A stretch of 48,435 bases of DNA from Escherichia phage EcoIv28_Lewi. The stretch lies in sequence record OX461087. One strand, 5' to 3'. The notes below the pieces were generated by a model that worked only from the letters and a program-made list of their open reading frames with translations, did no database searches and was not told the DNA's origin. How positions within the stretch are numbered: the first letter of the stretch is position 1; each line of letters opens with the position of its first letter. The position numbers and the translations under genes are program-made. Shown piece after piece: positions 2,914 through 44,223 of this stretch.

Positions 2914-3219
2914 ATGTTCACAGACATCACCATCGCGCAACGAAACGCGAACTATACCAACATTGCTGACACTTCAGCACAACTGGTATCACTAAACAGC
3001 GACGGCAGCGCAGTGCTGAAAATCGGCACCGAAACGGCGCAATTCATCGTGCAGAATCTGTCACAGGCGAACGCAAAGCAGGTGCTGATTAGCACGGGTA
3101 GCGTGCTGTTTCTGGCAGGTAATTACAATGCACCGAATCTTGAGTGTTCACTGGTGCGCATCGTTGAAGCTACGGTTGAGGAATCTGTTGATGAGCCAAC
3201 AACATTGCCAGCAGAGTGA
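2914..3219 (+). CDS. hypothetical protein (101 aa)
   Basis: Track ORF in the same operon. Confidence 0.5.
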   Translation: MFTDITIAQRNANYTNIADTSAQLVSLNSDGSAVLKIGTETAQFIVQNLSQANAKQVLISTGSVLFLAGNYNAPNLECSLVRIVEATVEESVDEPTTLPAE

Positions 3220-26311: not shown

Positions 26312-28162
26312 TTATAGCTGGCAAGTAAAGCTCAAGTCTATTGTTGCATTACCTGTTATCAGATCTGTTATCTGAACATCAACAGGTGAGCCTGACCTAT
26401 AGATTCTGCGGAAGAAAATTTTACCTCCCGTAATGTAACCATTTACCTCCAATAAATTAGTGTCAGTCCTTATTGCACTACTTAATATTGTAAGTATAGA
26501 ACCCATGCAATCACCCTTGAATGAGCTTAGGTAATGGGGAAGAGATATTGAAAACGCACCGGATCCAACGTTGCTTGTTATGTTGCATTCAATAGTTAAC
26601 CTTCCTGATACGCTGCGCTGAGTCAATTCATGTCTGTATATTTGTGAAGTATATGTGCAAGGTGCGTTTATGGTTGGGTTGAATCCAGTGGACTGAGGGA
26701 AAACGTAGAAGCTTTGTAAGTTACCACCAGATACATTATTATTGATTGGCGTTGCTGACCCTGTGAAAACATAAACACCATTATTCTCAATACCTGATGA
26801 GTCAGAAGTTATAGGTTCCTTTATGCTGTTTTCAGTTCCGCTTATTAAAAATGCTTTACCATATTCAGGCCCATCATTTGAGTGGAAAAGAATTCTTGGG
26901 CCTATCAGGTTATTATTGTAGCCAGATATAATATAACCGACACCACCATTTTCTAAACTTGCAGGCTGAGTTTCGTCAAGCTTATGTGGAGTATCAGAAT
27001 AGAAATTAATTATGTTGTTTAAACTTCCGCTAAGCTTTAATCCAATTAACATTACACGAGTGCTTCTATCTCCATCCAACCCCCATACATGCGTGTTGAC
27101 TATGTCGTTCGCTCCGCCTGTAATTTCCATTCCTACAGGATAACCAACTACAGTTGTGTTAGAGTACATACTATCAGAAGTTCGGTGTAGTATACCGCTG
27201 ATAGCAGAAGTCCCTAGTTGATCCTCTGGGGCTACGACTGATAAATTATTGAATTTCCATTCATATCCTTTCTCTATGTTAACACCACCGTTTAACATAT
27301 TGAAAATTCTTGCATTATTTATTACAGTTCCAACTCCATCAGTACCATAAATTCCAACAGCAGATATTGATGATTCAGGCTCAATATAAAGATTGTCAAT
27401 AAGAACTCTATTTCCTGTTTGTATAGCTGTTATACCATCATTATAAGGAGATCTCCATTTATCATCCTTAACTTCTATAACAACAGTATCAGTAAAGTCC
27501 TTTGGCACGATAGAACCGATATTATGCATTCTTGCCCCACTGTTTAAAACAAGACGTGATGTTATGCATGTTTTACCAATAAACAATACGGTTCTTTCAT
27601 TTGTTGCTGACCAATCTAAAGCTTGCTGATTAGGAATGGTATCATCATCAATACCATTACATTTAGCGCCAAATGATCGATTTGTAATGCAATCAGTCAA
27701 TACATCTTCAACAATTCTGGTTGAAAAACCTGTTGGCCCAAATCCTATCAATCCTGCCCCTGTAGGCTCAGCAAGATTTGCTCTTAATGATGCATCCCCG
27801 ACACTAACCCACGCACCAATACCAACCCCACCAGTTGTTGCTGGAGTTGAACCGGCAGATACGGTTTTAGGTAATTCACCATCCCAGCGGTAGTATTCTC
27901 CTGTTGCTTCGTAACGTAGCACCTGATTTGGTAGCGTCAATGTCGCGCCATCTTCAAAGCTATCCATTGTGATATATCCATAAGCACGAATGGCCTCTTC
28001 CGCAGTGTACTGGAATCCCGCAATTGTCCAGCGGCGAACTCCGAATCGGTCGGTGTAGTAATGTGCGTCAGATGTCACCACCTCGTCGATCTTACCGGCA
28101 TTAAATTTCAGGTCGCGCGGATCTTCTGACGGAATTGGTTTATTAGTTGGTGTGGTAGCCAT
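26312..28162 (-). CDS. tail fibre / tailspike protein
   Basis: 616 aa, repetitive Gly/Asn/Ser/Thr-rich beta-type body after a conserved-looking N-terminal anchor. Confidence 0.6.
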   Translation of the reverse strand: MATTPTNKPIPSEDPRDLKFNAGKIDEVVTSDAHYYTDRFGVRRWTIAGFQYTAEEAIRAYGYITMDSFEDGATLTLPNQVLRYEATGEYYRWDGELPKTVSAGSTPATTGGVGIGAWVSVGDASLRANLAEPTGAGLIGFGPTGFSTRIVEDVLTDCITNRSFGAKCNGIDDDTIPNQQALDWSATNERTVLFIGKTCITSRLVLNSGARMHNIGSIVPKDFTDTVVIEVKDDKWRSPYNDGITAIQTGNRVLIDNLYIEPESSISAVGIYGTDGVGTVINNARIFNMLNGGVNIEKGYEWKFNNLSVVAPEDQLGTSAISGILHRTSDSMYSNTTVVGYPVGMEITGGANDIVNTHVWGLDGDRSTRVMLIGLKLSGSLNNIINFYSDTPHKLDETQPASLENGGVGYIISGYNNNLIGPRILFHSNDGPEYGKAFLISGTENSIKEPITSDSSGIENNGVYVFTGSATPINNNVSGGNLQSFYVFPQSTGFNPTINAPCTYTSQIYRHELTQRSVSGRLTIECNITSNVGSGAFSISLPHYLSSFKGDCMGSILTILSSAIRTDTNLLEVNGYITGGKIFFRRIYRSGSPVDVQITDLITGNATIDLSFTCQL

Positions 28163-31545: not shown

Positions 31546-32925
31546 TCAGACGTTGAATTTTATTGTTGTGATGTATTTGCTGCCCCACGCAGAATCTGCT
31601 TGGGGGATGGTGGCGTAATCTCCAACCGCCTGAACGTTTACCACGGATCCGTCTGAATAGGTAATGTCGATGCTTGTTGCGCCATTCATTGCTACTTTTG
31701 CGGATGCTGATGGTCGTGTAGTTAAATTTTCTTCTGTTTTAATATAAGATGATGAATTGGTAGACTTCTCCATTTGAGCGCCAAAAACTGATATGGAACT
31801 AACGCCGTCACCAGTAAATGAAGTGTTACCATTTTCATCTGTTAACCAAACTGACCCGTTTATAGTTGATACAGAACTTCTGGTGGTTATTCTTGACCAC
31901 ACCCTGTACCATCCATTGCCAATTGACATTATTCCGCATCTTGAATAGTCATTAGCGGATGTTATTTTTCCACTGGAAAGGTCTACATAAACAGGATTGC
32001 TTGCCACCTGACTAGCAAATACTCCGACCTGAACAAGAGCATTATTGTATCCGTTTGCTTTCACAAAAACAGAATATGTATAAGTGGCAGACACATCAGG
32101 ATTCAGGAGTTGCAGAACGTGATGCGAGCCATCTGTAATCGTCGGGATAATATCAGATGATGAAAGCTCTCCTGTGGGGGATATTGCATCCCCGTAATTG
32201 ACTGTAATTCTCGTCTTACTCCATGATTGATCGGTTAAGTTCTCAGACATTTTTAGCAAATTCAAACTTGCAATCTCAGGAGGCTCGCGCCCAACAGCAC
32301 TACCATCAATAAACGTGAGAGGCCATTCATTGATAGCGGACTGCACAAGATTACCATTGCGGTTGATGTAATAAATCTGTGGTCCATCATAAACAATGCG
32401 ACTATCAAGCGTAGATGACAGCATGTTAATCGGCATGTGCAATATCGGCGTCATATAGACTTGCGGTAGTTCACGGTTAACAACTTCATCCAGCCAGCTA
32501 TACCATCTGTAATCCAGCTCGACCAGAACATCGTCGAACTCATCCATCGTGTTATTGAGTTTTTTGGCGATGATGTTTCCAGTCCACGTCACCACGCCAC
32601 CATCAATGCTTGTCTGCACCGGGTAATCGGTGAAATGCAGGGTCTGCTCCTGCAATCCACTGCCGCCGAGGTCAATCATCATGGTGAACCAGTTGTTTGC
32701 TTTGTTGAGGTAACTCGGACTACGCAACCACTGGATAAATGCGCGCTCCTCTGCCAGCGTAAACTTCCATGTCAGGCTCCATGTCGATGCAATGTCAGTT
32801 GTCAGTTTCTGGAAAATCGGCACCCCGACCGCAGGCTGGTCACTGCGGAACGGGGTTTGCTGTGTCATGTTTTTACTGGCGCGTTGTGCGAGTGGAAGCC
32901 AGTCAGGGTATTTGATGATAGCCAT
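31546..32925 (-). CDS. minor / distal tail protein
   Basis: 459 aa directly after tape measure (ATGA overlap). Confidence 0.5.
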   Translation of the reverse strand: MAIIKYPDWLPLAQRASKNMTQQTPFRSDQPAVGVPIFQKLTTDIASTWSLTWKFTLAEERAFIQWLRSPSYLNKANNWFTMMIDLGGSGLQEQTLHFTDYPVQTSIDGGVVTWTGNIIAKKLNNTMDEFDDVLVELDYRWYSWLDEVVNRELPQVYMTPILHMPINMLSSTLDSRIVYDGPQIYYINRNGNLVQSAINEWPLTFIDGSAVGREPPEIASLNLLKMSENLTDQSWSKTRITVNYGDAISPTGELSSSDIIPTITDGSHHVLQLLNPDVSATYTYSVFVKANGYNNALVQVGVFASQVASNPVYVDLSSGKITSANDYSRCGIMSIGNGWYRVWSRITTRSSVSTINGSVWLTDENGNTSFTGDGVSSISVFGAQMEKSTNSSSYIKTEENLTTRPSASAKVAMNGATSIDITYSDGSVVNVQAVGDYATIPQADSAWGSKYITTIKFNV

Positions 32926-35267
32926 TATTCTGTTGCTCTCCGGTTTGTTGAGTAATTTCTTGAAATAGCCTGCCCTATCGCGCCATTGTTCTCAATATCA
33001 CTAACGATAGTCTCAATTGTTACGCTGCCATCACCGTTATCTCTGGCGCTGCTGCTAACCTGCGCTGAGCTGTTATTGATGACGTTATTATAAACCACAA
33101 CGCCACTACCACCTCCGGTAATGTCTTTGTTGCTGATAACACGACCACTATCGCCCGGTATCATGTACTGATGACCGTTTGATGCCTGGAATATCTCAGG
33201 GAGGTTATTCTCTCCGACTCGGTACATTGAGCCTTCCTGCGCTGGCCCACCATTTTTCAGCGCGCCAGCAATAGACATTGTCTTTGCGAGGCCAACCGTT
33301 GCCCCAATTCCTGCCATAGCAGGGGCTGAGTTTGCGCCAGCGGTTGCAAGAGATGTCATTGCTGCTGCTGGAGCCATCGCCGCTGATATTGCCGCAGCCT
33401 GAGCTATCGTCGCAGCAGAAGCTGCGCTCATTCCTGCTGTACCCATGATAGCTGATTTGGCCCAATCTATACCCATTTGCACAAACGCATTGATAACACT
33501 GGACAGAATATTTGAACCAATTGAGCGTAGAGCCTCTGATACAGACATTGAACCAGTAAGGATGCCAGTAAGCGCATTTCCAGCAGTCTGCCCAAAAGCA
33601 TCAAACGCAGCAGCCGCCGCTTGTGTGGCTGCGCTTTGCTGACTCCATTCCTGCCACATTGCTTCAATTCTTTGCTGTCTGTACTGCTCTTCAATTGTAG
33701 CTCTGGTTTGCTGTATCTCTGCCATCTTTTGCGGGTACGCTTTGGCATAAGCATCCAAATCAGCCATATCCTTCTGATAGGATGTTTCTACAGCAAACAT
33801 TGGTGAGGTTTGCGATTTTAGTGCGCTGTATCCTTTTACGGCATCTATTCTTTTCTTCTCCGCAGTCGCCTGTTCCTTCAGTGCATTCTTCTGGTCCCAA
33901 ATCTTCGCAGCGTACTGGCCAGCCAGTTTTATTTGCTCCTGAGTTGCGTCCTTGCCAAGCGATTGCTGCGCGTTGAGAATGGCTTGCTCGCGGGATAGTT
34001 CGCTGGTTGATGTGGCGTTAAGCATGGTTTGCTGGCGTAACTTCTCCAGCTTTTCAGCAACTGACTCAGCTTGCCGTTCTTCGGCGCTTTTGCCTGTTGC
34101 TTTTTTCTTTTTCTCTTTTTCTGCTGCCTTTGGTACTGTCAAATGAGCCTGCGCCTTTGCCGCCTCTCCTGTCGATTTGGTGACAGCATCCATATCTGCG
34201 ACCAATGTGGCAGCCTGATTTGCTACCGCCGCTATAGCCTGATTCTGCGCAGCCCAACCATCAATACCAATCCATGACCATGTTCTTGCTCTGCGACTGA
34301 ACATTTCTGCTGTTGATGTCAAATCAGAAATAACCTCTGCCGCACCTATAGTCTGACCAGTTAGTCTGTTGATTGCTGAGGTAATAGAGTCAATAACAGA
34401 AACAAAAGTGGAACTGGCTCCTGTTGCTTCGTTTATGCTTGCTATCATTTTTGCAAATGATGTTTCAAGACTGCCAGTAGCCTGAGATATAGAGCGCGGT
34501 AGTTTTGCGAACTCAGCATTGACGACGCTAGTCCTGTCCTGAATGGCGTTCAGGGCATCTTCCGCCGTCAGTTTACCGTCGAGCATTCTGGCACGAAGCT
34601 CACCCATTGAAATGCCAAGACCCGCCGCTATCTGACGCGCAAGTTCAGGCATCTGCTCAAGGATAGAGTTAAATTCTTCGGCGCGGATTGTGCCAGATGC
34701 GATTGACTGACCGAACTGACGTAATGCGTTCGCCATTTCTTCAGTTGATGACCCACCGATTCTACCTATTTTTTGCAGGGTATCTGTGAGGTTAAGAACC
34801 TGCGCATTTGTCGCTCCAGCCTCTTTCAGTGATGATGTTAATGTCTCCCACAACTTCGTGGTGTCACTGAGGCTTGCGCCAGTGGTAGAGGCGATATTTG
34901 TCAGCGAATTGAAGGTTTCCTTCGCGGTCTCAGCATCTCCTGTTAACCTTTTTATCCTTGCCTGTAGCTGTGTCATGTTGTCAGCTATCTCAAGGAAAGC
35001 CTTACCCCATCCAATGATTAACGACACTGAGATTGCACCAGCCAGCATCGACATGCTGGTCTTGAGTCCTGAAGCTGCGCCGCCAGCATTCTTCATTCCG
35101 CTGCCAGCATTTCTGGCGTTTTTATCCAACTTGCCAAGCGCATTTGTGGTTTTGTTGGTTGATGATTCAAGGTCATCTAAAGTCTTATTGGCTGTTGTCG
35201 CGCCAGCTTTCAGGCCTTTAACATCCATCCCGACTTCATATACAATTCCGCCGACTTCTTCAGCCAT
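32925..35267 (-). CDS. tail tape measure protein
   Basis: 780 aa, Ala/Gly/Ser-rich with long coiled coils and hydrophobic stretch. Confidence 0.85.
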   Translation of the reverse strand: MAEEVGGIVYEVGMDVKGLKAGATTANKTLDDLESSTNKTTNALGKLDKNARNAGSGMKNAGGAASGLKTSMSMLAGAISVSLIIGWGKAFLEIADNMTQLQARIKRLTGDAETAKETFNSLTNIASTTGASLSDTTKLWETLTSSLKEAGATNAQVLNLTDTLQKIGRIGGSSTEEMANALRQFGQSIASGTIRAEEFNSILEQMPELARQIAAGLGISMGELRARMLDGKLTAEDALNAIQDRTSVVNAEFAKLPRSISQATGSLETSFAKMIASINEATGASSTFVSVIDSITSAINRLTGQTIGAAEVISDLTSTAEMFSRRARTWSWIGIDGWAAQNQAIAAVANQAATLVADMDAVTKSTGEAAKAQAHLTVPKAAEKEKKKKATGKSAEERQAESVAEKLEKLRQQTMLNATSTSELSREQAILNAQQSLGKDATQEQIKLAGQYAAKIWDQKNALKEQATAEKKRIDAVKGYSALKSQTSPMFAVETSYQKDMADLDAYAKAYPQKMAEIQQTRATIEEQYRQQRIEAMWQEWSQQSAATQAAAAAFDAFGQTAGNALTGILTGSMSVSEALRSIGSNILSSVINAFVQMGIDWAKSAIMGTAGMSAASAATIAQAAAISAAMAPAAAMTSLATAGANSAPAMAGIGATVGLAKTMSIAGALKNGGPAQEGSMYRVGENNLPEIFQASNGHQYMIPGDSGRVISNKDITGGGSGVVVYNNVINNSSAQVSSSARDNGDGSVTIETIVSDIENNGAIGQAISRNYSTNRRATE

Positions 35268-35974
35268 TATGTATTCCTCGCTTTTTTCGCTTTGCGTTCA
35301 GCCAGTGCCTTCATGCGCTCGCGGTCTGCTTTAGCCTGATCGTACTCTGCCGCGCGCTCTTCTTTCGTTAACCCTTTCGGCTCTGGATATTTATTCTTAA
35401 TCATCATCTGAAACTCTGTCATGGACAGGTTTTCGGCCTCATCACGAGTCATATCGAAGTGCGTGCGTGCTGAGATGATGTATTGCGACGCATGAAACTC
35501 GTTTGTGGTTTTCTTGCCCTGCTCTTCCAGACGTTCGGGCACTTTGAGTGGCGACTTGCCAATGATGCCATGCTGCATCAGGTTGCGCGCAATAATAATA
35601 ATGTCGCTCACTGGTATGATGCCGGGAACGTATCGCACGCCGCGCGGCGTTGGCTTCCATCCGCCAATCAGCACAGAAATATCATCTTCACAGCATGACT
35701 GCATTACGATATAGGCCGCACTCAGCACATGACGACCATACACAGGCTTGCTGATGGTCTTCATAACCTGCATCTGAGCGCCAAATGGCAGGTATTCGAC
35801 GTGCTGCAAGGGCGCGACATAATCAATGCCATTGAGTTTAGCGTACACCTCGACGATTTCTTTTGGTGTGCCAATTTCATTCATGGCGCGGAATGATGGC
35901 TTGAAGAAAAAACTCCTGTCGGAAAGCGAGATGCGCATCTCCCCGATTTCTGTTAGTGGCGTGCGATTTTTCAT
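35267..35974 (-). CDS. tail assembly chaperone (putative)
   Basis: 235 aa immediately upstream of the tape measure with ATGA overlap; charged C-terminus. Confidence 0.5.
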   Translation of the reverse strand: MKNRTPLTEIGEMRISLSDRSFFFKPSFRAMNEIGTPKEIVEVYAKLNGIDYVAPLQHVEYLPFGAQMQVMKTISKPVYGRHVLSAAYIVMQSCCEDDISVLIGGWKPTPRGVRYVPGIIPVSDIIIIARNLMQHGIIGKSPLKVPERLEEQGKKTTNEFHASQYIISARTHFDMTRDEAENLSMTEFQMMIKNKYPEPKGLTKEERAAEYDQAKADRERMKALAERKAKKARNT

Positions 35975-36003
35975 TGCGTAACCCTGTCTGTGTAATGGTG
36001 TGA

Positions 36004-36042
36004 TTATACCATTTGACAGGTTGCGCAGACTTGGTGTAGATT
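36004..36042. promoter_or_regulatory. divergent promoters
   Basis: Minus: extended -10 TGGTATAAT; plus: TTGACA-N18-TAGATT (36013..36042). Confidence 0.45.
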
Positions 36043-36074
36043 TAAGTCATGTTGATGTAGATTGAGGTTCGAGT

Positions 36075-36350
36075 ATGAAAATGGAGAGTAAAAACTGGAA
36101 TGTCGTAGGTAGCTTCAAAACGGGATGTAGAGTAGAAAATCCGTGGGATGTGGTAACTGAAGATGATGGCACTGGATGGAGATTTGATGGTGATCTGCCG
36201 CATGAAGCTAATGTGAATAGCTTTTTAACTGATGGTTTTGGCGCAGGTGGATGGATTCATTGTTTCGGAGACACTCCTACTAAAACAGCGTCATTCCCAT
36301 ATTTAATTGTGGCTATTTTCTTGCTGCTGCTTATTTTAAAGATTATTTGA
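36075..36350 (+). CDS. tail-anchored membrane protein (moron)
   Basis: 91 aa, soluble N-terminus and C-terminal transmembrane helix, antisense to the tail operon. Confidence 0.5.
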   Translation: MKMESKNWNVVGSFKTGCRVENPWDVVTEDDGTGWRFDGDLPHEANVNSFLTDGFGAGGWIHCFGDTPTKTASFPYLIVAIFLLLLILKII

Positions 36351-36455
36351 GATAACAACCATTAACGAGACAATGCGATGAAACGACGCAACATAACCAA
36401 TGCCATTGATCTTAGCGCACGCCTTGACGTTTTCTTTTGGCGTGCGATTGCTCAT
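36336..36455 (-). pseudogene. duplicated 5' fragment of the tail assembly chaperone gene
   Basis: Minus-strand ORF MSNRTPKENVKACAKINGIGYVAS matches the chaperone N-terminus MKNRTP...AKLNGIDYVAP; shared AATCGCACGCCA and GCTAA.ATCAATGGCATTG. Confidence 0.35.
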
Positions 36456-36504
36456 GTTTTGCATCCTGAATTTGACTGATGTTGATTATATCATCTCAGT
36501 GGTG

Positions 36505-36533
36505 TTGACACCTGCGAGGTGGTGATGTAGATT
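36505..36533 (+). promoter_or_regulatory. sigma70-like promoter TTGACA-N17-TAGATT
   Basis: Consensus -35, 17-nt spacer, -10 TAGATT. Confidence 0.55.
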
Positions 36534-36572
36534 CAATTCATCGAAACGAGTGATGAATAAATGAGGTGAGTT

Positions 36573-36866
36573 ATGAAAATTAAAATGTTGGTTGCATCTG
36601 TGCTGTTAGCTTCCTCTTTCTCTGCTATCGCAACATCAGAGGTGTGCAAGAATATTGGCGATATTGCATTAAACACGGCCGATGCTCGCGATAACGGTAT
36701 CAGCAAGAATCTTGCCGAGGTGGTAGTTAAGGGTTCCACAAAAAACAACGAATCAGCAGAAATAATTGGTATTGCTATCGTAGAAATGGTTTATGCACGC
36801 AAGGATATGACTAAAGAGCAATTGCGTGATGTATCTGTTGCTTTGTGCGAAAAGAATGGCATGTAA
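36573..36866 (+). CDS. secreted/periplasmic small protein
   Basis: N-terminal signal peptide MKIKMLVASVLLASSFSAIA. Confidence 0.5.
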   Translation: MKIKMLVASVLLASSFSAIATSEVCKNIGDIALNTADARDNGISKNLAEVVVKGSTKNNESAEIIGIAIVEMVYARKDMTKEQLRDVSVALCEKNGM

Positions 36867-36898
36867 TATAAACAAGTTATTAACAGTTGAGGTTAGCT

Positions 36899-37093
36899 AT
36901 GGACGTTGTTATTTTGTTGTTTTTCGTTGGTTTGGTGGTATTTGCCTATCTTCTCCCGTCATTTGTGGCATTGCAAAGAAAGCATACAAATACTACCGCA
37001 ATCTGTGTGCTGAATATTCTTGTAGGGTGGAGTTTTATTGGGTGGGTTGCGGCACTTGTTTGGGCATTAGTTAACAGTGGCGACAAGAAATGA
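36899..37093 (+). CDS. superinfection-immunity-like small membrane protein
   Basis: Two transmembrane helices; motif YLLPSFVA..RKH.N...GWSFIGWVAALVWAL. Confidence 0.45.
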   Translation: MDVVILLFFVGLVVFAYLLPSFVALQRKHTNTTAICVLNILVGWSFIGWVAALVWALVNSGDKK

Positions 37094-37233
37094 ACGAGCA
37101 AACAAAAGCTGACCTGATTTTCTACACTGAACTGTATGTTGATGCGGGTTACGATTACGAAGAAGCTGAACGCATGGCGAAAGACTTGCTTCGTGTGATT
37201 GGTGTGATTTTTGATGAGGATAAGGTGATATGA
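37090..37233 (+). CDS. small hypothetical protein (47 aa)
   Basis: ATGA-coupled ORF between the two neighbouring genes. Confidence 0.35.
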   Translation: MNEQTKADLIFYTELYVDAGYDYEEAERMAKDLLRVIGVIFDEDKVI

Positions 37234-37430
37234 GCCGGTGGATTAGGTGTAGTGAGCGGATGCCTGAAGGTGACGAGATGGTTCTTACAGCATTTCGTGG
37301 TGTCGTTAGAACTGCGATATGTAAAGTTGTCGACAACATTGGCAGCAAGATATTTGTTAGTGAATTAGACCGCTGTCACGGAATTCCAGCCACCCATTGG
37401 TCTAAATCACCACAACCACCACAACAATAA
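37230..37430 (+). CDS. DUF551-like protein
   Basis: W.RCSERMPE ... THWSKSPQPP pattern. Confidence 0.5.
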   Translation: MSRWIRCSERMPEGDEMVLTAFRGVVRTAICKVVDNIGSKIFVSELDRCHGIPATHWSKSPQPPQQ

Positions 37431-37432
37431 AA

Positions 37433-37459
37433 CAAAGCCCCTTTCGGGGCTTTTTCTTT
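37433..37459. terminator. bidirectional rho-independent terminator
   Basis: Hairpin AAAGCCCC-TTTC-GGGGCTTT plus T-run. Confidence 0.6.
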
Positions 37460-37460
37460 A

Positions 37461-38177
37461 TCACGATACAGTGCAAGCTGTACTGATGATAATTTCCGGG
37501 TCAGTAGACGAGTCAGTCACCGTTACGGTGTATACGCCAGCGGTCGGGCTTGCTAGTGAAGCGCCAGATTCGCCACCAACAACTACACCATCTTTGCGCC
37601 ACACGTAGGTGTAAGGAGCAACACCACCTTCAACAGCAACAGTTAACGGGCTGCCAGTCGTGCCAGTTGATTGCAGGTCGGTAGTGAATGCCAGAGGCTC
37701 AAGGCTTTCGACGGTAACGCTGTCAGAATCGTAAACCTTGAACTCAAGGCTGCCAGTCACAATGTCGTTTGTGCCGCCTTCGTAGCTGATGCTGGTGATG
37801 TTGCAGTATGCGGTAACGATAGTTGCACCAGTTACCTGACGCACCCACAAAGAAGGCTGGCGACGCGCTTTCAGTTCAGTAGCGTAAATCTCAACCAGAC
37901 GATGGAAGCCAAACTCATCGCTCGGGTCATTCTTGCGGATTTCCACCTCTGCACTGATGGTCATATCAGAGCTGGTAACGAGAGTGGAAACAAAACCGCC
38001 AGCGGTATCCGCTTCAGACGTAGTGGTCTGCGGCGAGTAGTCAACACCTTTACTGGTGGTTGATCCTAAATATTTCCAGTCTTCTGCATCCGGAACTGCG
38101 TCACCGCACCCTTCAGCAAGGAACAGTCGTGTCATGCGACCGACCAGAACGCCTTTATCATTTGCACAAATAGCCAT
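37461..38177 (-). CDS. major tail protein with C-terminal Ig-like domain
   Basis: 238 aa; C-terminus (GVAPYTYVWRKDGVVVGG...YTVTVTD) looks like a bacterial Ig-like domain; own extended -10 TGATATAAT upstream. Confidence 0.7.
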   Translation of the reverse strand: MAICANDKGVLVGRMTRLFLAEGCGDAVPDAEDWKYLGSTTSKGVDYSPQTTTSEADTAGGFVSTLVTSSDMTISAEVEIRKNDPSDEFGFHRLVEIYATELKARRQPSLWVRQVTGATIVTAYCNITSISYEGGTNDIVTGSLEFKVYDSDSVTVESLEPLAFTTDLQSTGTTGSPLTVAVEGGVAPYTYVWRKDGVVVGGESGASLASPTAGVYTVTVTDSSTDPEIIISTACTVS

Positions 38178-38228
38178 TTCGATCTCCGAATTGTGTTAGC
38201 TGCTAACGTGGTGATTATATCACAGGTG

Positions 38229-38257
38229 TTGACAGTGATTATTTTGTGGTGTAGATT
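38229..38257 (+). promoter_or_regulatory. sigma70-like promoter TTGACA-N17-TAGATT driving the non-coding region and tRNA
   Basis: Consensus hexamers with 17-nt spacer. Confidence 0.55.
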
Positions 38258-38261
38258 GTAT

Positions 38262-38686
38262 TTCAGATAGTTTTCGTGAGCGACTTTGCGGACTTTTTAG
38301 AAACTGACCACAAAGATAAATGCAAACGATGATGTTGTTCTGATGGCGGCGTAATAGCCTAAAATTAGCGGGGTATTCCAGTTCCCTGTAACAGAATCTG
38401 GCGCAGTGGCCCGCTGTGATTAATAATGGGCACACAACAGGTAAGAGTACTGAGTCGGTAATCGTGAAGAGTCGGCGTGCCTGGTTAGCCAGTGCTCTTA
38501 CCGTTGTGGTAATGCCATCTTGATTATTTGGATAGGTTTGCATCCATTATTATGCCAGTTTCAGTTAATCGCGAAACGCCACAACACTTAATATCCAGCA
38601 TTATCGCAATCATATGTAGGGGTATGTATGGGTTACGGGGCTGGATATTAAGAAAGCACGCTGGCAATGCTTAAACCAGCACTTAT
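38262..38686 (+). ncRNA. candidate structured non-coding RNA / tRNA leader
   Basis: ~425 nt with no credible ORF; 13-bp perfect inverted repeat (38587..38599 with 38640..38652) and a second long-range stem. Confidence 0.3.
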
Positions 38687-38763
38687 GGACGCGTAGCTTA
38701 ATTGGTTAAAGCAACCGACTCATAATCGGCTGATTGAAGGTTCAAATCCGTCCGTGTCCACCA
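38687..38763 (+). tRNA. tRNA, anticodon CAT (Met, or Ile if lysidine-modified)
   Basis: Hand-folded cloverleaf: acceptor GGACGCG/CGTGTCC, anticodon loop CTCATAA, T-loop TTCAAAT, encoded 3' CCA. Confidence 0.8.
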
Positions 38764-41195: not shown

Positions 41196-41224
41196 TTGAC
41201 GTAGATTGATGGCGTGTTTATAGT
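41196..41224 (+). promoter_or_regulatory. sigma70-like promoter TTGACG-N17-TATAGT for the accessory island
   Basis: Consensus hexamers; TAGATT motif inside the spacer. Confidence 0.5.
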
Positions 41225-41264
41225 AATGACGTAGAAACAACAATAAATGTTAGAGGTGAGTGAT

Positions 41265-41603
41265 ATGAAAGATGAGTTCAAAGGTACAAAAGGTCCGTGG
41301 CAGGTTTTACCAGAAGAGGTTGATAAGCCATACATCCGAATCAGAGGCACAATTCCTGGTCACAGATACAAGGTGGCAAACGTATTAACTCCTGTTTATG
41401 AAAATGTTCATGCCAGAGAGGCTAATGAAACACGCGCAAACGCAAAGTTAATAGTTGCAGCGCCAGAATTACTCGAAGCACTTCGCCAGCTTCGCGATTA
41501 CGTTGAGGATGTTTGCGCAGTATCGCCTGATGATTGCCATGAAGACCATCCATTAAATCTGGCAAACAAAGCAATCAAGAAAGCATTAGGGAAGAAACAA
41601 TGA
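41265..41603 (+). CDS. hypothetical protein (112 aa), first gene of accessory island
   Basis: Track ORF 41247..41603 trimmed to ATG after GAGGTGAG RBS. Confidence 0.5.
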   Translation: MKDEFKGTKGPWQVLPEEVDKPYIRIRGTIPGHRYKVANVLTPVYENVHAREANETRANAKLIVAAPELLEALRQLRDYVEDVCAVSPDDCHEDHPLNLANKAIKKALGKKQ

Positions 41604-42409
41604 AAACACTAAGCAAAATCTATTCAGACAAAGAAACGCGAAACGGCATCGCTGTTAACAAAACCTATCTCGTGCCAGTGGAGCAAATCTATCTGGAGCC
41701 GGGCTACAACATCCGCGAAGCCGATGAGCAACACGTTGAATATTTCGCGCAGTGCTGGGAATCAGGGCAGCCGTTACCAGCATTAACAGTTATTCCAGAC
41801 GAGAAGGGAATCCGCATTCTTGATGGTCAGCATCGCTACCTCGGCGCACTGCGTGCCATTGAGCGTGGCGCACCAATCGTTCGTATTGAGTGCAAGGACT
41901 TTACTGGAGATGAGGCGGATAAAATCGCCTTCATGGTGTCATCCAGTCAGGGTAAGCAGCTCGACCCATTTGAACGAGCAAAGGCTTATACGCGACTGAA
42001 AGGCTTTGGCTGGACGAATGAAGAAATCGCCAAGAAGGTAGGTCGCTCAGTATCTGACGTGCAAATGCACCTGTCGCTGGGTGATGTGCCAGTGGAAGTA
42101 AAAGCGCGCATCAGTGCGGGACAAATAAGCTATGCAAATGCCGTAGCAGTAACGCGTGAGCATGGTGACGATGCGGTTAAAGTTATCGACGAGGCCGTGG
42201 AAGAGGCGAAGGTGCGAGGCAAGGATAAAGTTACAGCGAAGGTACTAAAGTCGAAAAAGATTAAGCCAGTAGACCGTCTGATTGAGTTATTGAAGCCAGC
42301 AGACCACGTGATTCTTCCTGCCGGTCATGTGGTGGCAGAAGATGAGGAATTTATTCAGATTCCTGTTACTGATATTCACGAGGTTATGGCAATTCTGGAG
42401 AAGATGTGA
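41600..42409 (+). CDS. ParB-like protein (ParB/Srx N-terminal domain plus HTH)
   Basis: Motifs YNIRE and ILDGQHRYLGALRA; HTH-like WTNEEIAKKVGRSVSDV. Confidence 0.75.
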   Translation: MKTLSKIYSDKETRNGIAVNKTYLVPVEQIYLEPGYNIREADEQHVEYFAQCWESGQPLPALTVIPDEKGIRILDGQHRYLGALRAIERGAPIVRIECKDFTGDEADKIAFMVSSSQGKQLDPFERAKAYTRLKGFGWTNEEIAKKVGRSVSDVQMHLSLGDVPVEVKARISAGQISYANAVAVTREHGDDAVKVIDEAVEEAKVRGKDKVTAKVLKSKKIKPVDRLIELLKPADHVILPAGHVVAEDEEFIQIPVTDIHEVMAILEKM

Positions 42410-43410: not shown

Positions 43411-44223
43411 ATGAATCAAGTTATTAGCTTTTCAGGCGGTAGAACTTCAGCGTTTATGACGCTGGAGGTACTAAAGATACACCCAGAAGCCGAAATTATC
43501 TTTATGGATACTGGAGCTGAGCACCCAAAAACGTATGAGTTTGTTCGCAACTTCGCAAAGCACTTCAATATCGCTATAACATGTATTCGCGTGGTTCCAA
43601 ATATGCAAATGCGTAAGGCAAGTACGTATGAGCAGCTAACCGTCGATGAGATTGGTCCAGACCTTGAGCCGTGGCGGAGAATGTTGCGTAAGTATGGTCA
43701 TCCATACGTTGGTGGAGCATTCTGCACCGACAGAATGAAGACCGTGCCATTCACTAAATACTGTAATGAAAAATACGGGAAAGGAAACTACGAAAGATGG
43801 CTTGGCATCAGGTCCGATGAACCAAACCGGTTGAAGAACCGAGGTGACGGTTTTCATTACCTTGCAGACATTAGCGACTTTGAAAAGCAGGATATCCTTG
43901 ACTGGTGGTCAATGCAACCATTCGACCTTGGTATTCAGGAGCATCTTGGTAATTGCGTTTTCTGCATCAAGAAGAGCCTGCAGAAAGTTGCACTTGCTGC
44001 AAAGGATGAGCCGGAACTTGCTGCTGAGTTTTGGAAGATGATTCAGGATGAAGATAAAAAATCAGACAAGATAATGTATCGCTCAAACAGAAGTCTTGGC
44101 GACGTTATAGTTTTATTTAACGATGTAAGCAGGGATGAACTGGCATCACGAATGACGTCAATGCGCCAGTACGATACTGGTTCATGCAGCGAGAGTTGCG
44201 AAGCATTTTCTAATGAGAATTAA
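43411..44223 (+). CDS. PAPS-reductase-like PP-loop ATP pyrophosphatase
   Basis: PP-loop SFSGGRTS, CTDRMKTVPF motif, C-terminal Cys cluster. Confidence 0.75.
   Translation: MNQVISFSGGRTSAFMTLEVLKIHPEAEIIFMDTGAEHPKTYEFVRNFAKHFNIAITCIRVVPNMQMRKASTYEQLTVDEIGPDLEPWRRMLRKYGHPYVGGAFCTDRMKTVPFTKYCNEKYGKGNYERWLGIRSDEPNRLKNRGDGFHYLADISDFEKQDILDWWSMQPFDLGIQEHLGNCVFCIKKSLQKVALAAKDEPELAAEFWKMIQDEDKKSDKIMYRSNRSLGDVIVLFNDVSRDELASRMTSMRQYDTGSCSESCEAFSNEN

What the first reader, a model, noticed from the sequence alone, without database searches (positions are those of the whole stretch)
35975..37459. Moron cluster in the tail operon, flanked by a duplicated fragment of the tail-chaperone gene
Five plus-strand genes with two consensus promoters and a terminator sit antisense between the major tail gene and the chaperone/tape-measure genes. 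They encode a tail-anchored membrane protein, a signal-peptide protein, a superinfection-immunity-like two-helix membrane protein, a 47-aa protein and a DUF551-like protein. At 36336..36455 the minus strand carries a short ORF that repeats the first codons of the chaperone gene (MSNRTP...AKINGIGYVA versus MKNRTP...AKLNGIDYVA), as if the insertion duplicated the target. The content suggests host-envelope modification or superinfection exclusion.
Basis: partly seen in the sequence, partly recalled or inferred. Interest (0 to 1): 0.55.

Follow-up and report, generated by a model that had tools for sequence, protein, structure and literature searches.

The report
Accessory gene island inside tail operon
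A block of five small, mostly membrane-targeted genes (one a T4 Imm-type superinfection-immunity gene) sits backwards between the tail-tube and tape-measure genes of this Skate-like virulent phage, as in all its close relatives. This genome gained one extra promoter-plus-gene cassette by sloppy recombination that left a decaying copy of the neighbouring gene's start. That is ordinary phage mosaicism, except that the extra gene is a membrane-anchored copy of a tailspike domain.

Summary
Five plus-strand genes, two TTGACA-N17/18-TAGATT promoters, a bidirectional terminator and a fragment of the neighbouring DUF6246 ('chaperone') gene are all present. The fragment's similarity to the gene scores z=27.6 against shuffles.

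The interpretation needs correcting in three ways:
- **The island is not a recent insertion.** All 44 close Skatevirus-like relatives examined carry it, as an ordered array of optional slots around an almost always present 47-aa gene. More distant relatives have the tail-tube gene directly next to the chaperone gene.
- **The fragment lies inside the island.** It brackets only the first gene (g1) and its promoter P1.
- **The fragment plus P2 is the ancestral junction.** P1+g1 was captured from a related phage by illegitimate recombination. The fragment now evolves neutrally (pN/pS 0.79, against 0.035 for real copies).

The most likely function is early-expressed protection of the infected cell against secondary infection. 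This rests mainly on the PF14373 Imm homolog, because T4 Imm binds the tape measure protein. It is positionally analogous to the HK97 gp15 moron. No function was tested here.

One unexpected result: g1 is a diverged homolog of the tailspike D2 subdomain (PF18668), including this phage's own tailspike, fused to a C-terminal membrane anchor. Overall this is a new member of a known kind, of moderate-to-low interest.

The parts
32925..35267 (-). Tape measure protein gene (780 aa). Context only; it is the presumed target class of Imm-type proteins.
   Evidence: Pfam TMP_3 at E=3e-58. The Sf11 ortholog gp18 is found in the virion.
35267..35974 (-). DUF6246 gene (235 aa), the presumed tail assembly chaperone. 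This is the intact copy whose 5' end is duplicated. It starts MKNRTP, whereas almost all relatives start MSNRTP.
   Evidence: PF19759 at E=5e-73 and phrog_791. It lies between the tube and tape-measure genes. The Sf11 ortholog gp19 is absent from the virion mass-spectrometry table. No homology to a characterised chaperone was found.
36003..36011 (-). Extended -10 element (TGGTATAAT) on the minus strand. It is the predicted promoter for the chaperone/tape-measure genes and sits back to back with P1.
   Evidence: Read from the sequence. The motif ATTATAYCA lies 24-30 nt from the chaperone start in all 44 island-bearing loci. ASO78B's annotators marked divergent promoters at this position.
36013..36042 (+). 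Promoter P1 (TTGACA-N18-TAGATT), which travels with g1.
   Evidence: P1-type sequence is found upstream of every g1 homolog examined: L063, L064, L065, L066, ECO95 and BS5.
36075..36350 (+). g1 (91 aa): a beta domain homologous to the tailspike D2 subdomain (Tail_spike_N) plus a C-terminal transmembrane helix. This is the newly acquired cassette gene.
   Evidence: AF2 model with pLDDT 80, six strands and helix 73-90. Profile against window ORFs hits the phage's own tailspike at E=5e-10. Profile against PDB: all 10 hits are tailspikes or tail fibres, best 5.6e-6. hhalign probability 96.7%. Foldseek top hits are tailspikes. The family has only 5 clusters among 1.8 billion representatives.
36361..36371 (+). 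ATTAACGAGAC, a probable relic of the donor phage's 47-aa gene start (ATGAACGAGAC). It marks the right end of the captured segment.
   Evidence: It differs by one base from the start found in L066 and at the BS5 junction. There are only 3 matches with at most 1 mismatch in the whole window, counting both strands. This is an inference.
36374..36455 (-). Remnant of the recipient's chaperone gene: codons 1-6 joined to about codons 37-62, with 93 nt deleted in frame. The open frame is 36336-36464. It is a pseudogene fragment.
   Evidence: 12 nonsynonymous against 2 synonymous codon changes, pN/pS 0.79. The same deletion junction is present in L063 and L064. The first 18 nt are 100% identical to the chaperone start of relatives.
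36485..36493 (-). Second copy of the minus-strand extended -10 (TGATATAAT). It now reads into the remnant and runs antisense through g1.
   Evidence: No terminator is predicted between this element and the chaperone gene.
36505..36533 (+). Promoter P2 (TTGACA-N17-TAGATT), the ancestral island promoter.
   Evidence: P2 is 96-100% identical to the region next to the chaperone start in nearly all relatives (91-93% in two loci).
36573..36866 (+). g2 (97 aa): an exported protein with a Sec signal peptide (predicted cleavage after AIA). The mature part is a four-helix bundle with invariant Cys25 and Cys92.
   Evidence: phrog_2315. 132 homologs, those with long contigs all on about 45-49 kb phage-sized contigs. 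Alignment. AF2 model with pLDDT 81. No PDB match. BFVD matches to exported proteins and lipoproteins of diverse phages.
36899..37093 (+). g3 (64 aa from the ATG; the ORF opens at TTG 36887): a two-helix inner-membrane protein of the T4 Imm family.
   Evidence: PF14373 at E=3.5e-18, 65.7 bits against a cut-off of 27.9. phrog_1039 'immunity to superinfection'. Relatives annotate the 64-aa form.
37090..37233 (+). g4 (47 aa, acidic, cytoplasmic), the nearly universal core gene of the island.
   Evidence: phrog_17424 at E=8e-37. Detected in 43 of 44 island-bearing loci, the exception being L039 by ORF calling. dN/dS 0.049.
37230..37430 (+). g5 (66 aa), a DUF551 protein.
   Evidence: PF04448 at E=8e-10, 39.8 bits against a cut-off of 22.
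37434..37453 (.). Bidirectional intrinsic terminator shared by the island (+) and the tail-tube gene (-).
   Evidence: A GC hairpin is present at the same place in 42 of 44 loci. It is annotated in Skate and ASO78B.
37461..38177 (-). Major tail (tube) protein gene; context only.
   Evidence: phrog_853 at E=3e-86. Sf11 gp24 is the tail tube protein.
27800..27982 (-). D2-like (Tail_spike_N) subdomain, residues 61-121, of this phage's tailspike (gene 26312-28162). It is the paralog of g1's soluble domain.
   Evidence: PF18668 at E=8e-20. BLASTP against g1 gives 35% identity over 52 aa, E=2e-5.

Best explanation
**What it is.** This is the lineage-wide accessory gene island of Skatevirus-like virulent siphoviruses. 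It is inserted antisense between the tail-tube gene and the DUF6246 (chaperone) / tape-measure genes.

**Layout.**
- A compact divergent promoter sits at the chaperone end. A consensus sigma-70 promoter faces into the island, and an extended -10 faces the chaperone/tape-measure genes. Those genes lost co-transcription with the tube gene when the island arrived.
- A bidirectional terminator closes the other end.
- Between them is an ordered array of optional slots: [HNH] - [g1] - [exported 97 aa] - [Imm] - 47 aa - [DUF2591/NinX] - DUF551-like.

**How the extra cassette arrived (inferred).**
- A donor relative had the arrangement chaperone-P1-g1-47aa, as in contig L065.
- It recombined with a recipient of the common type, chaperone-P2-(97aa)-Imm-47aa.
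- The left crossover was homologous, in the chaperone gene.
- The right crossover was illegitimate. It joined the first ~11 nt of the donor's 47-aa gene to about codon 62 of the recipient's chaperone gene.
- This added P1+g1 without losing anything. It left the recipient's chaperone 5' end and P2 as an internal duplicate.
- The fragment then lost 93 nt and has since drifted neutrally.

**What it does (inferred).** The island is probably transcribed early by host RNA polymerase. It probably places proteins in the envelope that protect the infected cell from secondary infection. The Imm homolog would block tape-measure-mediated genome translocation at the inner membrane, as T4 Imm does. The roles of g1, g2, g4 and g5 are unknown.
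For: **The island is clade-wide and modular**
- All 44 loci whose chaperone is at least 65% identical carry it. All have the same divergent promoter, and 42 of 44 have the terminator hairpin.
- Six relatives at about 41-46% chaperone identity (L045, L047, L051-L053, L055) have the tube and chaperone genes only 55-57 nt apart. Several other distant loci have a gap of roughly 200-330 nt with no detectable island gene.
- G+C falls to 0.39-0.44 inside the island.
- The island genes measured (g2-g5) are under purifying selection, dN/dS 0.05-0.19.
- None of the Sf11 orthologs gp19-gp23 is among the virion proteins.

**Remnant + P2 is the ancestral junction**
- P2 is 96-100% identical to the region next to the chaperone start in nearly all relatives (91-93% in two loci).
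- The remnant's first 18 nt equal the start codon region of those relatives, MSNRTP.

**P1+g1 is the newcomer**
- No GenBank phage has this g1. Only 9 of 153 related records carry a homolog, at 41-44% identity.
- P1-type sequence accompanies g1 homologs in every context seen, including a 'clean' chaperone-P1-g1-47aa arrangement in L065.

**It was a single event**
- The same deletion junction is present in two other g1-bearing contigs, and those differ from each other downstream.

**An independent parallel**
- BS5 and LPST10 carry a different g1 subtype flanked by a 21-bp duplication of P2.
- The junction there is at an 8-nt microhomology, GACTGATG, just after the 47-aa gene start of an L066-type donor.

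**The remnant is decaying**
- It shows 12 nonsynonymous against 2 synonymous codon changes, pN/pS 0.79. Real chaperones show dN/dS 0.035.

**Function**
- g3 passes the PF14373 gathering score.
- T4 Imm binds the tape measure protein, and HK97 gp15 is thought to act similarly (bioRxiv 10.64898/2026.03.06.709160).
- HK97 gene 15 lies between the tail chaperone and tape-measure genes (PMC3594210).
Against: - There are no expression data. The promoters are consensus matches only, so early timing is inferred.
- No exclusion phenotype has been tested for any gene here or, as far as I found, in any relative.
- PF14373 membership does not prove the function. The family is large and mostly uncharacterised.
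- The actual donor genome was not found.
- The right-hand junction is only approximately placed. It shows a 3-nt microhomology with 3 unexplained extra bases.
- The 11-nt relic is short.
- P1 and P2 are only weakly similar by formal local alignment (z=2.9; 33 of 2000 shuffles reach the score). Their homology rests on collinear blocks and shared position.
- The 'chaperone' role of DUF6246 rests on position and its absence from virions. No frameshift signal or homology to a known chaperone was found.
Confidence: 0.62

Rival explanations
1. The short minus-strand ORF (39-42 aa) or its transcript is itself functional. It could be a small protein derived from the chaperone's N-terminus. Alternatively, it could be an antisense RNA that starts at the duplicated extended -10 promoter and down-regulates g1 by convergent transcription.
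For: The duplicated copy keeps an intact TGATATAAT, a ribosome-binding context, an ATG and an open frame in all three genomes that carry it. The 93-nt deletion is in frame. No terminator is predicted between it and g1, so antisense transcription through g1 is physically plausible.
Against: The coding pattern is neutral: pN/pS is 0.79, with differences spread over all three codon positions. All four differences between the window copy and the L063/L064 copies change the amino acid. The fragment occurs only with this one g1 subtype. An in-frame deletion has a one-in-three chance of arising anyway. Antisense transcription would be a side effect of the duplication rather than a selected function.
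Confidence: 0.07
2. The cassette was inserted by a mobile-element mechanism, either transposition or homing-endonuclease-driven gene conversion, and the repeat is the footprint of that mechanism.
For: A relative (ECO95 1-6-1) carries an HNH-AP2 endonuclease gene exactly between the chaperone gene and its P1-g1 homolog. The first ~100 nt of its chaperone gene are recoded, as is often seen next to homing sites. L063 has an HNH_3 gene about 3 kb away.
Against: There is no transposase, integrase, inverted repeat or endonuclease gene in 35975-37459 of this window. The duplication is long, imperfect and includes coding sequence, unlike a target-site duplication. BS5/LPST10 junctions fall at different positions with microhomology. 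That fits illegitimate recombination better than site-specific insertion.
Confidence: 0.1
3. The island is not about superinfection. It is an early host-takeover or anti-defence module, or chiefly a transcriptional device. Its divergent promoter and bidirectional terminator would uncouple high tail-tube expression from low chaperone/tape-measure expression, with the small genes as passengers.
For: The only near-universal gene is the 47-aa acidic cytoplasmic protein, not Imm. Imm is missing from about a third of relatives and the exported protein from a similar share. DUF551, DUF2591 and NinX-like genes are typical of early or nin regions. The regulatory elements are conserved in 44 of 44 loci. 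No island gene matches a known defence or anti-defence model.
Against: Three of the five proteins in this genome are envelope-targeted. One belongs to the only characterised family in the island, and that family is an entry blocker. Distant relatives manage tail gene expression without any island. This rival is not exclusive of the main explanation.
Confidence: 0.2
4. The structure arose in situ. A tandem duplication of the chaperone 5' end plus promoter came first, and a later event dropped g1 between the copies.
For: The end product, two copies of chaperone-5'/promoter with a gene between them, is also what this route would give.
Against: It needs two events instead of one. It does not explain why P1 and the MKN start are of the type that accompanies g1 in other lineages. 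It does not explain why a relic of a 47-aa gene start follows g1. No genome with a bare duplication was seen among 44 loci.
Confidence: 0.06

Closest known systems
HK97 gene 15 moron (Juhala et al. 2000; Cumby et al. 2012; reviewed in PMC3594210)
   Same: It is an independently transcribed accessory unit inside the tail operon, next to the tail chaperone and tape-measure genes. It encodes a small inner-membrane protein that blocks genome entry of superinfecting phages, with specificity mapping to the tail.
   Different: HK97 is temperate, and gp15 is a single YebO-like gene expressed from the prophage. Here the phage is virulent. The unit holds five genes in modular slots, lies antisense to the tail genes and sits on the other side of the chaperone gene. 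Its membrane protein belongs to a different family (PF14373). No phenotype is known.
T4 Imm (superinfection immunity protein, PF14373)
   Same: g3 matches the family model well above threshold and has the same small, helical, inner-membrane character. T4 Imm binds the tape measure protein and blocks genome translocation.
   Different: g3 is 64 aa, whereas the T4 protein is 83-94 aa. The phage is a siphovirus with an unrelated tape measure protein (TMP_3). Neither binding nor exclusion was tested.
PeSL mobile regulatory cassettes of T4-type phages (Arbiol et al. 2010, PMC2839356)
   Same: Repeated strong sigma-70-like promoters lie in a hyperplastic region of non-essential genes. They appear to serve as recombination joints for gain, loss and replacement of gene cassettes. 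In BS5 the left crossover lies in the shared promoter core.
   Different: No stem-loop terminator is attached to each promoter. There are only one or two promoter copies per genome. The right-hand junctions are microhomology or illegitimate joins rather than promoter-promoter exchanges. No mini-circles are known.
CBA120 TSP1 subdomain D2 / Pfam Tail_spike_N (PF18668)
   Same: g1 residues ~6-63 align to this subdomain in solved tailspikes and in this phage's own tailspike. Conserved motifs are F-x-x-G, RWDG-x-LP and GG-x-G-x-G-x-W. The fold is the same small beta sandwich that resembles the chitin-binding domain 1ED7.
   Different: g1 lacks the N-terminal anchor helices that dock the spike on the distal tail protein. 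It also lacks the neck and the beta-helix, and instead carries a C-terminal transmembrane helix. The Pfam model itself does not reach E<=0.1 on g1. The function of D2 is unknown even in tailspikes.
T5 Llp / T1 Cor receptor-blocking proteins of virulent siphoviruses
   Same: These are small envelope-targeted proteins made by a virulent siphovirus during infection, encoded among tail genes, and they prevent adsorption or entry of further phages (as summarised).
   Different: Llp and Cor are lipoproteins that block porin receptors, and they are encoded next to the receptor-binding protein. These phages use O-antigen or Vi via a tailspike. g2 has no lipobox, and the island is far from the tailspike gene.

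Membership tests
Imm_superinfect (PF14373, T4 Imm family), for g3 | Match to the family HMM above the curated gathering score | tested here: met
   65.7 bits against a cut-off of 27.9, E=3.5e-18, covering profile positions 2-42 of 42. Also phrog_1039 at E=8.5e-25.
Imm_superinfect (PF14373, T4 Imm family), for g3 | Small inner-membrane protein with hydrophobic helices | tested here: met
   Read from the sequence: two hydrophobic stretches (about residues 3-22 and 34-58 of the 64-aa form) separated by QRKHTNTT. No dedicated topology predictor was available.
Imm_superinfect (PF14373, T4 Imm family), for g3 | Blocks genome injection of superinfecting phage and binds the tape measure protein | not testable with these tools
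   Known for T4 Imm only. Testing needs plating-efficiency and co-purification experiments.
Moron (Hendrix/Juhala sense), for the whole island | Own promoter and own terminator, forming an independent transcription unit | tested here: met
   Consensus promoter(s) and a hairpin terminator bound the island and are conserved in relatives. These are sequence matches only, with no transcript data.
Moron (Hendrix/Juhala sense), for the whole island | Nucleotide composition different from the neighbouring genes | tested here: met
   G+C is 0.39-0.44 against about 0.50 in the flanks.
Moron (Hendrix/Juhala sense), for the whole island | Present in one genome and absent from the same place in related genomes | tested here: met
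   Absent in relatives at about 41-46% chaperone identity, where the tube-chaperone gap is 55-57 nt in six loci. Present in all 44 closer ones.
Moron (Hendrix/Juhala sense), for the whole island | Expressed from a repressed prophage to benefit the lysogen | tested here: not met
   The group is described as virulent small siphoviruses. There is no match in 5,426 complete E. coli genomes. The word 'moron' therefore fits only in its structural sense.
Moron, for the P1+g1 cassette alone | Promoter + gene + terminator | tested here: not met
   The promoter is present and travels with the gene. No terminator is predicted between g1 and g2, so P1 transcripts would read on into g2-g5.
Tail_spike_N (PF18668), for the g1 soluble domain | Match to the Pfam HMM | tested here: not met
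   No Pfam family at E<=0.1 for g1. The phage's own tailspike matches at 8.2e-20.
Tail_spike_N (PF18668), for the g1 soluble domain | Homology to the domain by profile methods | tested here: met
   g1-family profile against PDB: all 10 hits are tailspikes or tail fibres at this domain, 9 of them with E<1e-3. Against window ORFs: own tailspike at E=5e-10. hhalign gives probability 96.7%, E=3.8e-10.
Tail_spike_N (PF18668), for the g1 soluble domain | Same fold | tested here: inconclusive
   Foldseek top hits are tailspikes 9d84_A and 6nw9 (probability 0.96-0.99, TM 0.48) but with E=0.09-0.2. Only one of the five AF2 models reached pLDDT 80.
Transposon-type target-site duplication | Short exact direct repeats flanking an element with terminal inverted repeats and a transposase | tested here: not met
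   The repeat is 67+18 nt at 82-89% identity with an internal 93-nt deletion. There are no terminal inverted repeats and no transposase.
Tail assembly chaperone, for the DUF6246 gene | Encoded between the tail tube and tape-measure genes, and absent from the virion | tested here: met
   Gene order. The Sf11 ortholog gp19 is not in the virion mass-spectrometry table.
Tail assembly chaperone, for the DUF6246 gene | Programmed -1 frameshift product, or homology to a characterised chaperone | tested here: inconclusive
   It is a single 235-aa ORF. The only sizeable alternative-frame ORF (72 aa) has an unprotein-like composition. There is no significant PDB or NCBIfam match. The PHROG annotation is 'unknown function'.
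DUF551 (PF04448), for g5 | Match above the gathering score | tested here: met
   39.8 bits against a cut-off of 22.

The most novel reading that the evidence does not exclude
g1 may be a new kind of phage-encoded interference protein: a tailspike D2 subdomain detached from the spike and tethered to the inner membrane.

It could act as a decoy in one of two ways:
- **In the periplasm.** It would engage whatever the D2 subdomain of incoming spikes touches during tail-tip docking, or a glycan intermediate. This would block secondary infection, or block adsorption of progeny to debris.
- **In the cytoplasm.** It would co-assemble with and sequester tailspike subunits of a co-infecting competitor. 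That would be tail-assembly interference, as described for the prophage proteins Tab and Tai.

Under this reading, the front slots of the island (g1, g2, Imm) form a swappable toolkit of entry or assembly blockers, genetically linked to the tail genes they are matched to.
Probability: 0.15. Interest if true: 0.7.

Novelty: new member of a known kind. Interest (0 to 1): 0.36.

Why it matters
This gives a clean, sequence-level reconstruction of how a virulent phage adds an accessory gene without losing any. The mechanism was one homologous and one illegitimate crossover with a relative, and the scar is still readable.

It shows that a whole group of therapeutically used Salmonella, E. coli and Shigella phages carries a modular early island next to the tape-measure gene. 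Its best-identified member belongs to the family of a tape-measure-binding entry blocker. That makes the island a natural place to look for determinants of mutual exclusion in phage cocktails.

The link between g1 and the tailspike D2 subdomain gives a first experimental handle on a subdomain whose role is still unknown even in solved tailspikes.

Tried and rejected
**Prophage or E. coli chromosomal origin.** No match in 5,426 complete E. coli genomes.

**Whole-cluster insertion with target duplication.** Rejected, because the four-gene core is clade-wide and the remnant is internal to the cluster.

**Remnant as a conserved small gene.** Rejected on the neutral substitution pattern.

**Function of g2**
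- Not in Pfam, NCBIfam or PADLOC.
- Foldseek against PDB gave nothing below E=1. A saposin-like resemblance (TM about 0.5, E about 3) is not significant.
- BFVD shows only that similar small exported helical proteins are common in phages.

**Function of g4.** No informative match in any library.

**Wider distribution of g1**
- Nothing in IMG/VR.
- One 98% cluster in 5.8 billion proteins.
- Five small clusters in 1.8 billion representatives, plus one repetitive 314-aa hit that looks spurious.

**DUF6246 as a known chaperone.** No PDB or NCBIfam support.

**Structured RNA in or beside the island**
- Only the tRNA passes Rfam thresholds.
- The tmRNA-like hits at 38225-38405 are far below gathering scores, and the region folds no better than shuffles (z=-0.71).

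**P1 against P2 similarity.** By local alignment alone it is weak (z=2.9). It was accepted only as collinear, position-equivalent alleles.


Full report
**What the window is**

The region 35200-38200 matches 153 GenBank phage records. 143 of them match at 90-95% identity. All are about 45-48 kb siphoviruses of Salmonella, E. coli and Shigella: Skate, Sf11, C1, LPST10, BS5, KFS-SE2 and Bas77-81. No complete E. coli genome matches. The BASEL study treats this cluster as virulent 'Skatevirus' small siphoviruses that use O-antigen through a single tailspike. None of the records is the window itself. The best cover 84-85% of the query, and the uncovered part is 36000-36376.

**Checking the observation**

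The ORF list and the sequence show this layout:

| Element | Coordinates | Strand |
|---|---|---|
| Tape measure gene | 32925-35267 | - |
| DUF6246 gene | 35267-35974 | - |
| Five small genes | 36075-37430 | + |
| Hairpin terminator | 37434-37453 | both |
| Tail-tube gene | 37461-38177 | - |

- Two exact TTGACA-N17/18-TAGATT sites lie at 36013-36042 and 36505-36533. The pattern occurs three times in the window, against 0.05 expected.
- The repeat is real. A 67-nt block is 82% identical between 35805-35871 and 36379-36445. An 18-nt block is 89% identical between 35957-35974 and 36438-36455.
- The local alignment score is 37, against 8.7 +/- 1.0 for 2000 dinucleotide shuffles.
- At protein level the match is 13/24 identical, E=5e-7.
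- The two blocks have offsets of 574 and 481 nt. The copy therefore lacks 93 nt (31 codons), and the deletion is in frame.

**The island is old, and the fragment is inside it**

I fetched 54 loci around homologs of the DUF6246 protein from IMG/VR, plus annotated GenBank regions. I then mapped the window's proteins on them.

- Every locus with a chaperone at least 65% identical has plus-strand genes between the chaperone and the tube gene.
- Six loci at about 41-46% identity (L045, L047, L051-L053, L055) have the tube gene only 55-57 nt from the chaperone gene, with no island. Several other distant loci have a gap of roughly 200-330 nt with no detectable island gene.
- Clustering the ORFs gave an ordered array of optional slots: [HNH] - [g1] - [exported 97 aa] - [Imm] - 47 aa - [DUF2591/NinX-like] - DUF551-like. 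About 30 different combinations occur among 44 loci. The 47-aa gene is present in nearly all, including loci with only 65% chaperone identity.
- All 44 loci keep ATTATAYCA 24-30 nt from the chaperone start. On the minus strand this reads TGrTATAAT, an extended -10. All 44 keep the TTGACA-N17/18-TAGATT promoter on the plus strand. 42 keep the terminal GC hairpin.
- The island has lower G+C than its flanks, 0.39-0.44 against about 0.50.
- Its genes are under purifying selection. dN/dS is 0.049 for the 47-aa gene, 0.071 for Imm, 0.115 for the exported protein and 0.185 for DUF551. The chaperone is 0.035 and the tube protein 0.053.
- In Sf11 the virion mass-spectrometry table lists gp13, 14, 16, 17, 18 and 24, but none of gp19-gp23. 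The DUF6246 protein and the island proteins are therefore non-structural.

**Which copy is the original**

Short-word BLAST of four pieces of the window against all loci gave the key result.

- In nearly every relative, the sequence next to the chaperone start codon is the window's P2 region (96-100% identical in almost all loci).
- The relatives' first 18 nt (MSNRTP) are 100% identical to the start of the window's remnant, not to the window's functional gene (MKNRTP).
- 'Remnant start + P2 + next gene' is therefore the ordinary, ancestral junction. The newcomers are the MKN start, P1 and g1 (alignment).
- P1-type sequence accompanies g1 homologs wherever they occur: the Logan contigs L063 and L064 (98% g1), L065, L066, ECO95 1-6-1 and BS5/LPST10.
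- In L065 the arrangement is a clean chaperone-P1-g1-47aa with no remnant. This is the donor type.
- Directly after the g1 stop the window reads ATTAACGAGAC (36361-36371). That is one base away from ATGAACGAGAC, the start of the 47-aa gene in L066-type genomes. Only three matches with at most one mismatch exist in the whole window, counting both strands.
- Homology to chaperone codons of about 62 downward begins a few bases later.

I infer one recombination event. The left crossover was homologous, within or beyond the chaperone gene. The right crossover was illegitimate and joined the first ~11 nt of the donor's 47-aa gene to codon ~62 of the recipient's chaperone gene. This adds P1+g1 and keeps everything the recipient had.

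Further points support this:
- The same 93-nt deletion junction occurs in L063 and L064. Those two differ downstream: L063 goes straight to Imm, and L064 has the exported protein. So the event happened once and the product has since recombined with other relatives.
- BS5 and LPST10 show an independent event of the same kind. A different g1 subtype (41-43% identical) carries a P1-type promoter. It is flanked by a 21-bp duplication of P2. Its right junction is at the 8-nt microhomology GACTGATG, just after ATGAACGAGACTGATG of the donor's 47-aa gene. Its left junction is in the shared promoter core.

**The fragment is a scar**

- Over the 24 aligned codons the remnant differs from the functional gene at 17 of 72 nt. 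This gives 12 nonsynonymous and 2 synonymous codon changes, spread over codon positions 4:6:7.
- pN/pS is 0.79.
- In the same stretch, real chaperone genes of relatives differ from the window's by 4.7 synonymous and 0.75 nonsynonymous codons on average.
- The window's copy differs from the L063/L064 copies at four positions, and all four change the amino acid.
- The fragment does keep an intact extended -10, ribosome-binding context and ATG. It would therefore probably be transcribed, running antisense through g1 into the chaperone gene, since no terminator is predicted in between. I regard this as a by-product.

**The proteins**

- **g3** belongs to the T4 Imm family. It scores 65.7 bits on PF14373 against a cut-off of 27.9, and matches phrog_1039. 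A 2026 preprint shows that T4 Imm binds the tape measure protein and so blocks formation of the genome translocation channel. It notes a similar proposal for HK97 gp15. HK97 gene 15, the original 'moron', lies between the tail chaperone and tape-measure genes.
- **g5** is DUF551.
- **g4** is phrog_17424 of unknown function.
- **g2** has a classical signal peptide. Its confidently modelled mature part is a four-helix bundle with two invariant cysteines near its ends. It has no significant PDB analog. It resembles many ~100-aa exported or lipoprotein phage proteins in BFVD, including the 'exported phage protein' of Vi phage E1.
- **PADLOC and NCBIfam** add nothing.

**An unexpected result for g1**

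- Its family is tiny. There is one 98% cluster in 5.8 billion proteins and five clusters in 1.8 billion representatives. Every member sits at this same locus.
- The AF2 model has a six-stranded beta domain and a C-terminal helix at 73-90. The best model has pLDDT 80 and the others are near 60.
- Foldseek against PDB put phage tailspikes first: 9d84_A and CBA120 TSP3 6nw9, probability 0.96-0.99 but E about 0.1. The chitin-binding domain 1ED7 ranked lower.
- Sequence profiles settle the matter. A profile of the six family members searched against the window's 174 ORFs finds the phage's own tailspike (26312-28162), residues 61-121, at E=5e-10. BLASTP gives 35% identity, E=2e-5.
- The same profile against all PDB sequences returns ten hits. 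All are tailspikes or tail fibres at the same subdomain, and nine have E<1e-3. hhalign gives probability 96.7%, E=3.8e-10.
- In the tailspike this stretch is Pfam Tail_spike_N (E=8e-20). It corresponds to subdomain D2 of CBA120 TSP1, whose fold resembles a chitin-binding domain and whose role is unknown.
- In Sf11 the spike docks on the distal tail protein through residues 4-59. D2 lies just after that anchor.
- g1 is therefore a D2-like domain without anchor or beta-helix, fused to a membrane helix.
- Its topology is unresolved. A tail-anchor predicts a cytoplasmic domain. The acidic N-domain, the Lys after the helix and the conserved Cys18 (and mostly Cys63) would also fit a periplasmic domain.

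**Most likely mechanism**

Steps shown by sequence:
- The layout of the island.
- The conservation of promoters, terminator and genes.
- Family membership of g3, g5 and g1.
- The ancestral status of remnant + P2.
- The neutral drift of the remnant.

Steps inferred:
- Host RNA polymerase transcribes the island early from P1 and P2 through to the shared terminator.
- The minus-strand extended -10 drives the chaperone/tape-measure genes.
- The Imm homolog prevents genome entry of later-arriving related phages by acting on their tape measure protein.
- g1 and g2 act in the envelope in the same general cause.

I put about 0.6 on this package. That breaks down as high confidence in the evolutionary reconstruction, about 0.5 for Imm-type exclusion, and low confidence for any specific role of g1, g2, g4 or g5.

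**Comparison and verdict**

Structurally this is a moron-like island. It is the virulent-phage counterpart of the HK97 gp15 moron, built around a T4 Imm-family gene. Cassette turnover is reminiscent of PeSL-mediated shuffling in T4-type phages. It fails the prophage-expression part of the moron definition, and the g1 cassette lacks its own terminator.

The Imm and DUF551 genes are already annotated in many GenBank relatives, so the island itself is not new. New here are:
- the slot structure of the island;
- the reading of the scar;
- the homology between g1 and the tailspike D2 subdomain.

Interest is moderate to low. The one reading that would raise it is g1 acting as a membrane-tethered tailspike-domain decoy.

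Noticed in passing
window 38229-38257 (+) and 38687-38763 (+): A third exact TTGACA-N17-TAGATT promoter lies just beyond the start of the tail-tube gene. It points into a ~600-bp plus-strand gap that holds a tRNA-Met (CAT anticodon; Rfam 63 bits). The structural module therefore has a second antisense unit driven by the same promoter type.
   Followed up: partly
window 38225-38405 (+): There are sub-threshold Rfam hits to alpha_tmRNA (30.4 bits against a gathering score of 50) and permuted tmRNA (27.3 against 47), starting at the promoter. ARAGORN finds no tmRNA. The 157 nt after the promoter fold no better than shuffles (z=-0.71). This is probably chance, but the transcribed spacer has no assigned function.
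   Followed up: partly
window 41196-42409 (+) and 43411-44223 (+): Further plus-strand islands lie inside the minus-strand structural module. One holds a 118-aa ORF and a 269-aa ParB-HTH/KorB-like protein behind TTGACG-N17-TATAGT. Another holds a 270-aa PAPS-reductase-domain protein. Of eight strong sigma-70-type matches in the genome, four sit at the start of such antisense units.
   Followed up: partly
L007 (Escherichia phage ECO95 1-6-1, OR845258) about 1420-1920: A 166-aa HNH-AP2 homing-endonuclease-like gene sits between the chaperone gene and the P1-g1 homolog. The first ~100 nt of that phage's chaperone gene are heavily recoded compared with all relatives. This could be a homing-site or co-conversion signature.
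   Followed up: no
window 36059-36074, 36557-36572, 36884-36898: g1, g2 and g3 each begin behind nearly the same 15-nt translation-initiation stretch: TTGAGGTTCGAGT-ATG, ATGAGGTGAGTT-ATG and TTGAGGTTAGCT-ATG. In relatives the presence or absence of the 97-aa gene is bounded by these stretches, so they may serve as microhomology joints for cassette gain and loss.
   Followed up: partly
L041 (IMGVR_UViG_3300045988_054408), island region: In a relative with 65% chaperone identity, the island holds the 47-aa gene followed by a 222-aa protein whose N-terminus looks like a DNA cytosine methyltransferase. The island can therefore carry anti-restriction-type cargo as well.
   Followed up: no
L066 (ENA VALL22-1 scaffold_307) 3001-3210: One g1 family member (P0125, 69 aa) ends before the transmembrane helix. 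It is either a decaying copy, or the soluble D2-like domain can act without the anchor.
   Followed up: no
window 35846-35868 and 35936-35958: The chaperone gene contains two 23-nt imperfect direct repeats (78% identical) 90 nt apart. They lie close to the end points of the 93-nt deletion in the remnant, which suggests repeat-mediated slippage as the cause of that deletion.
   Followed up: partly
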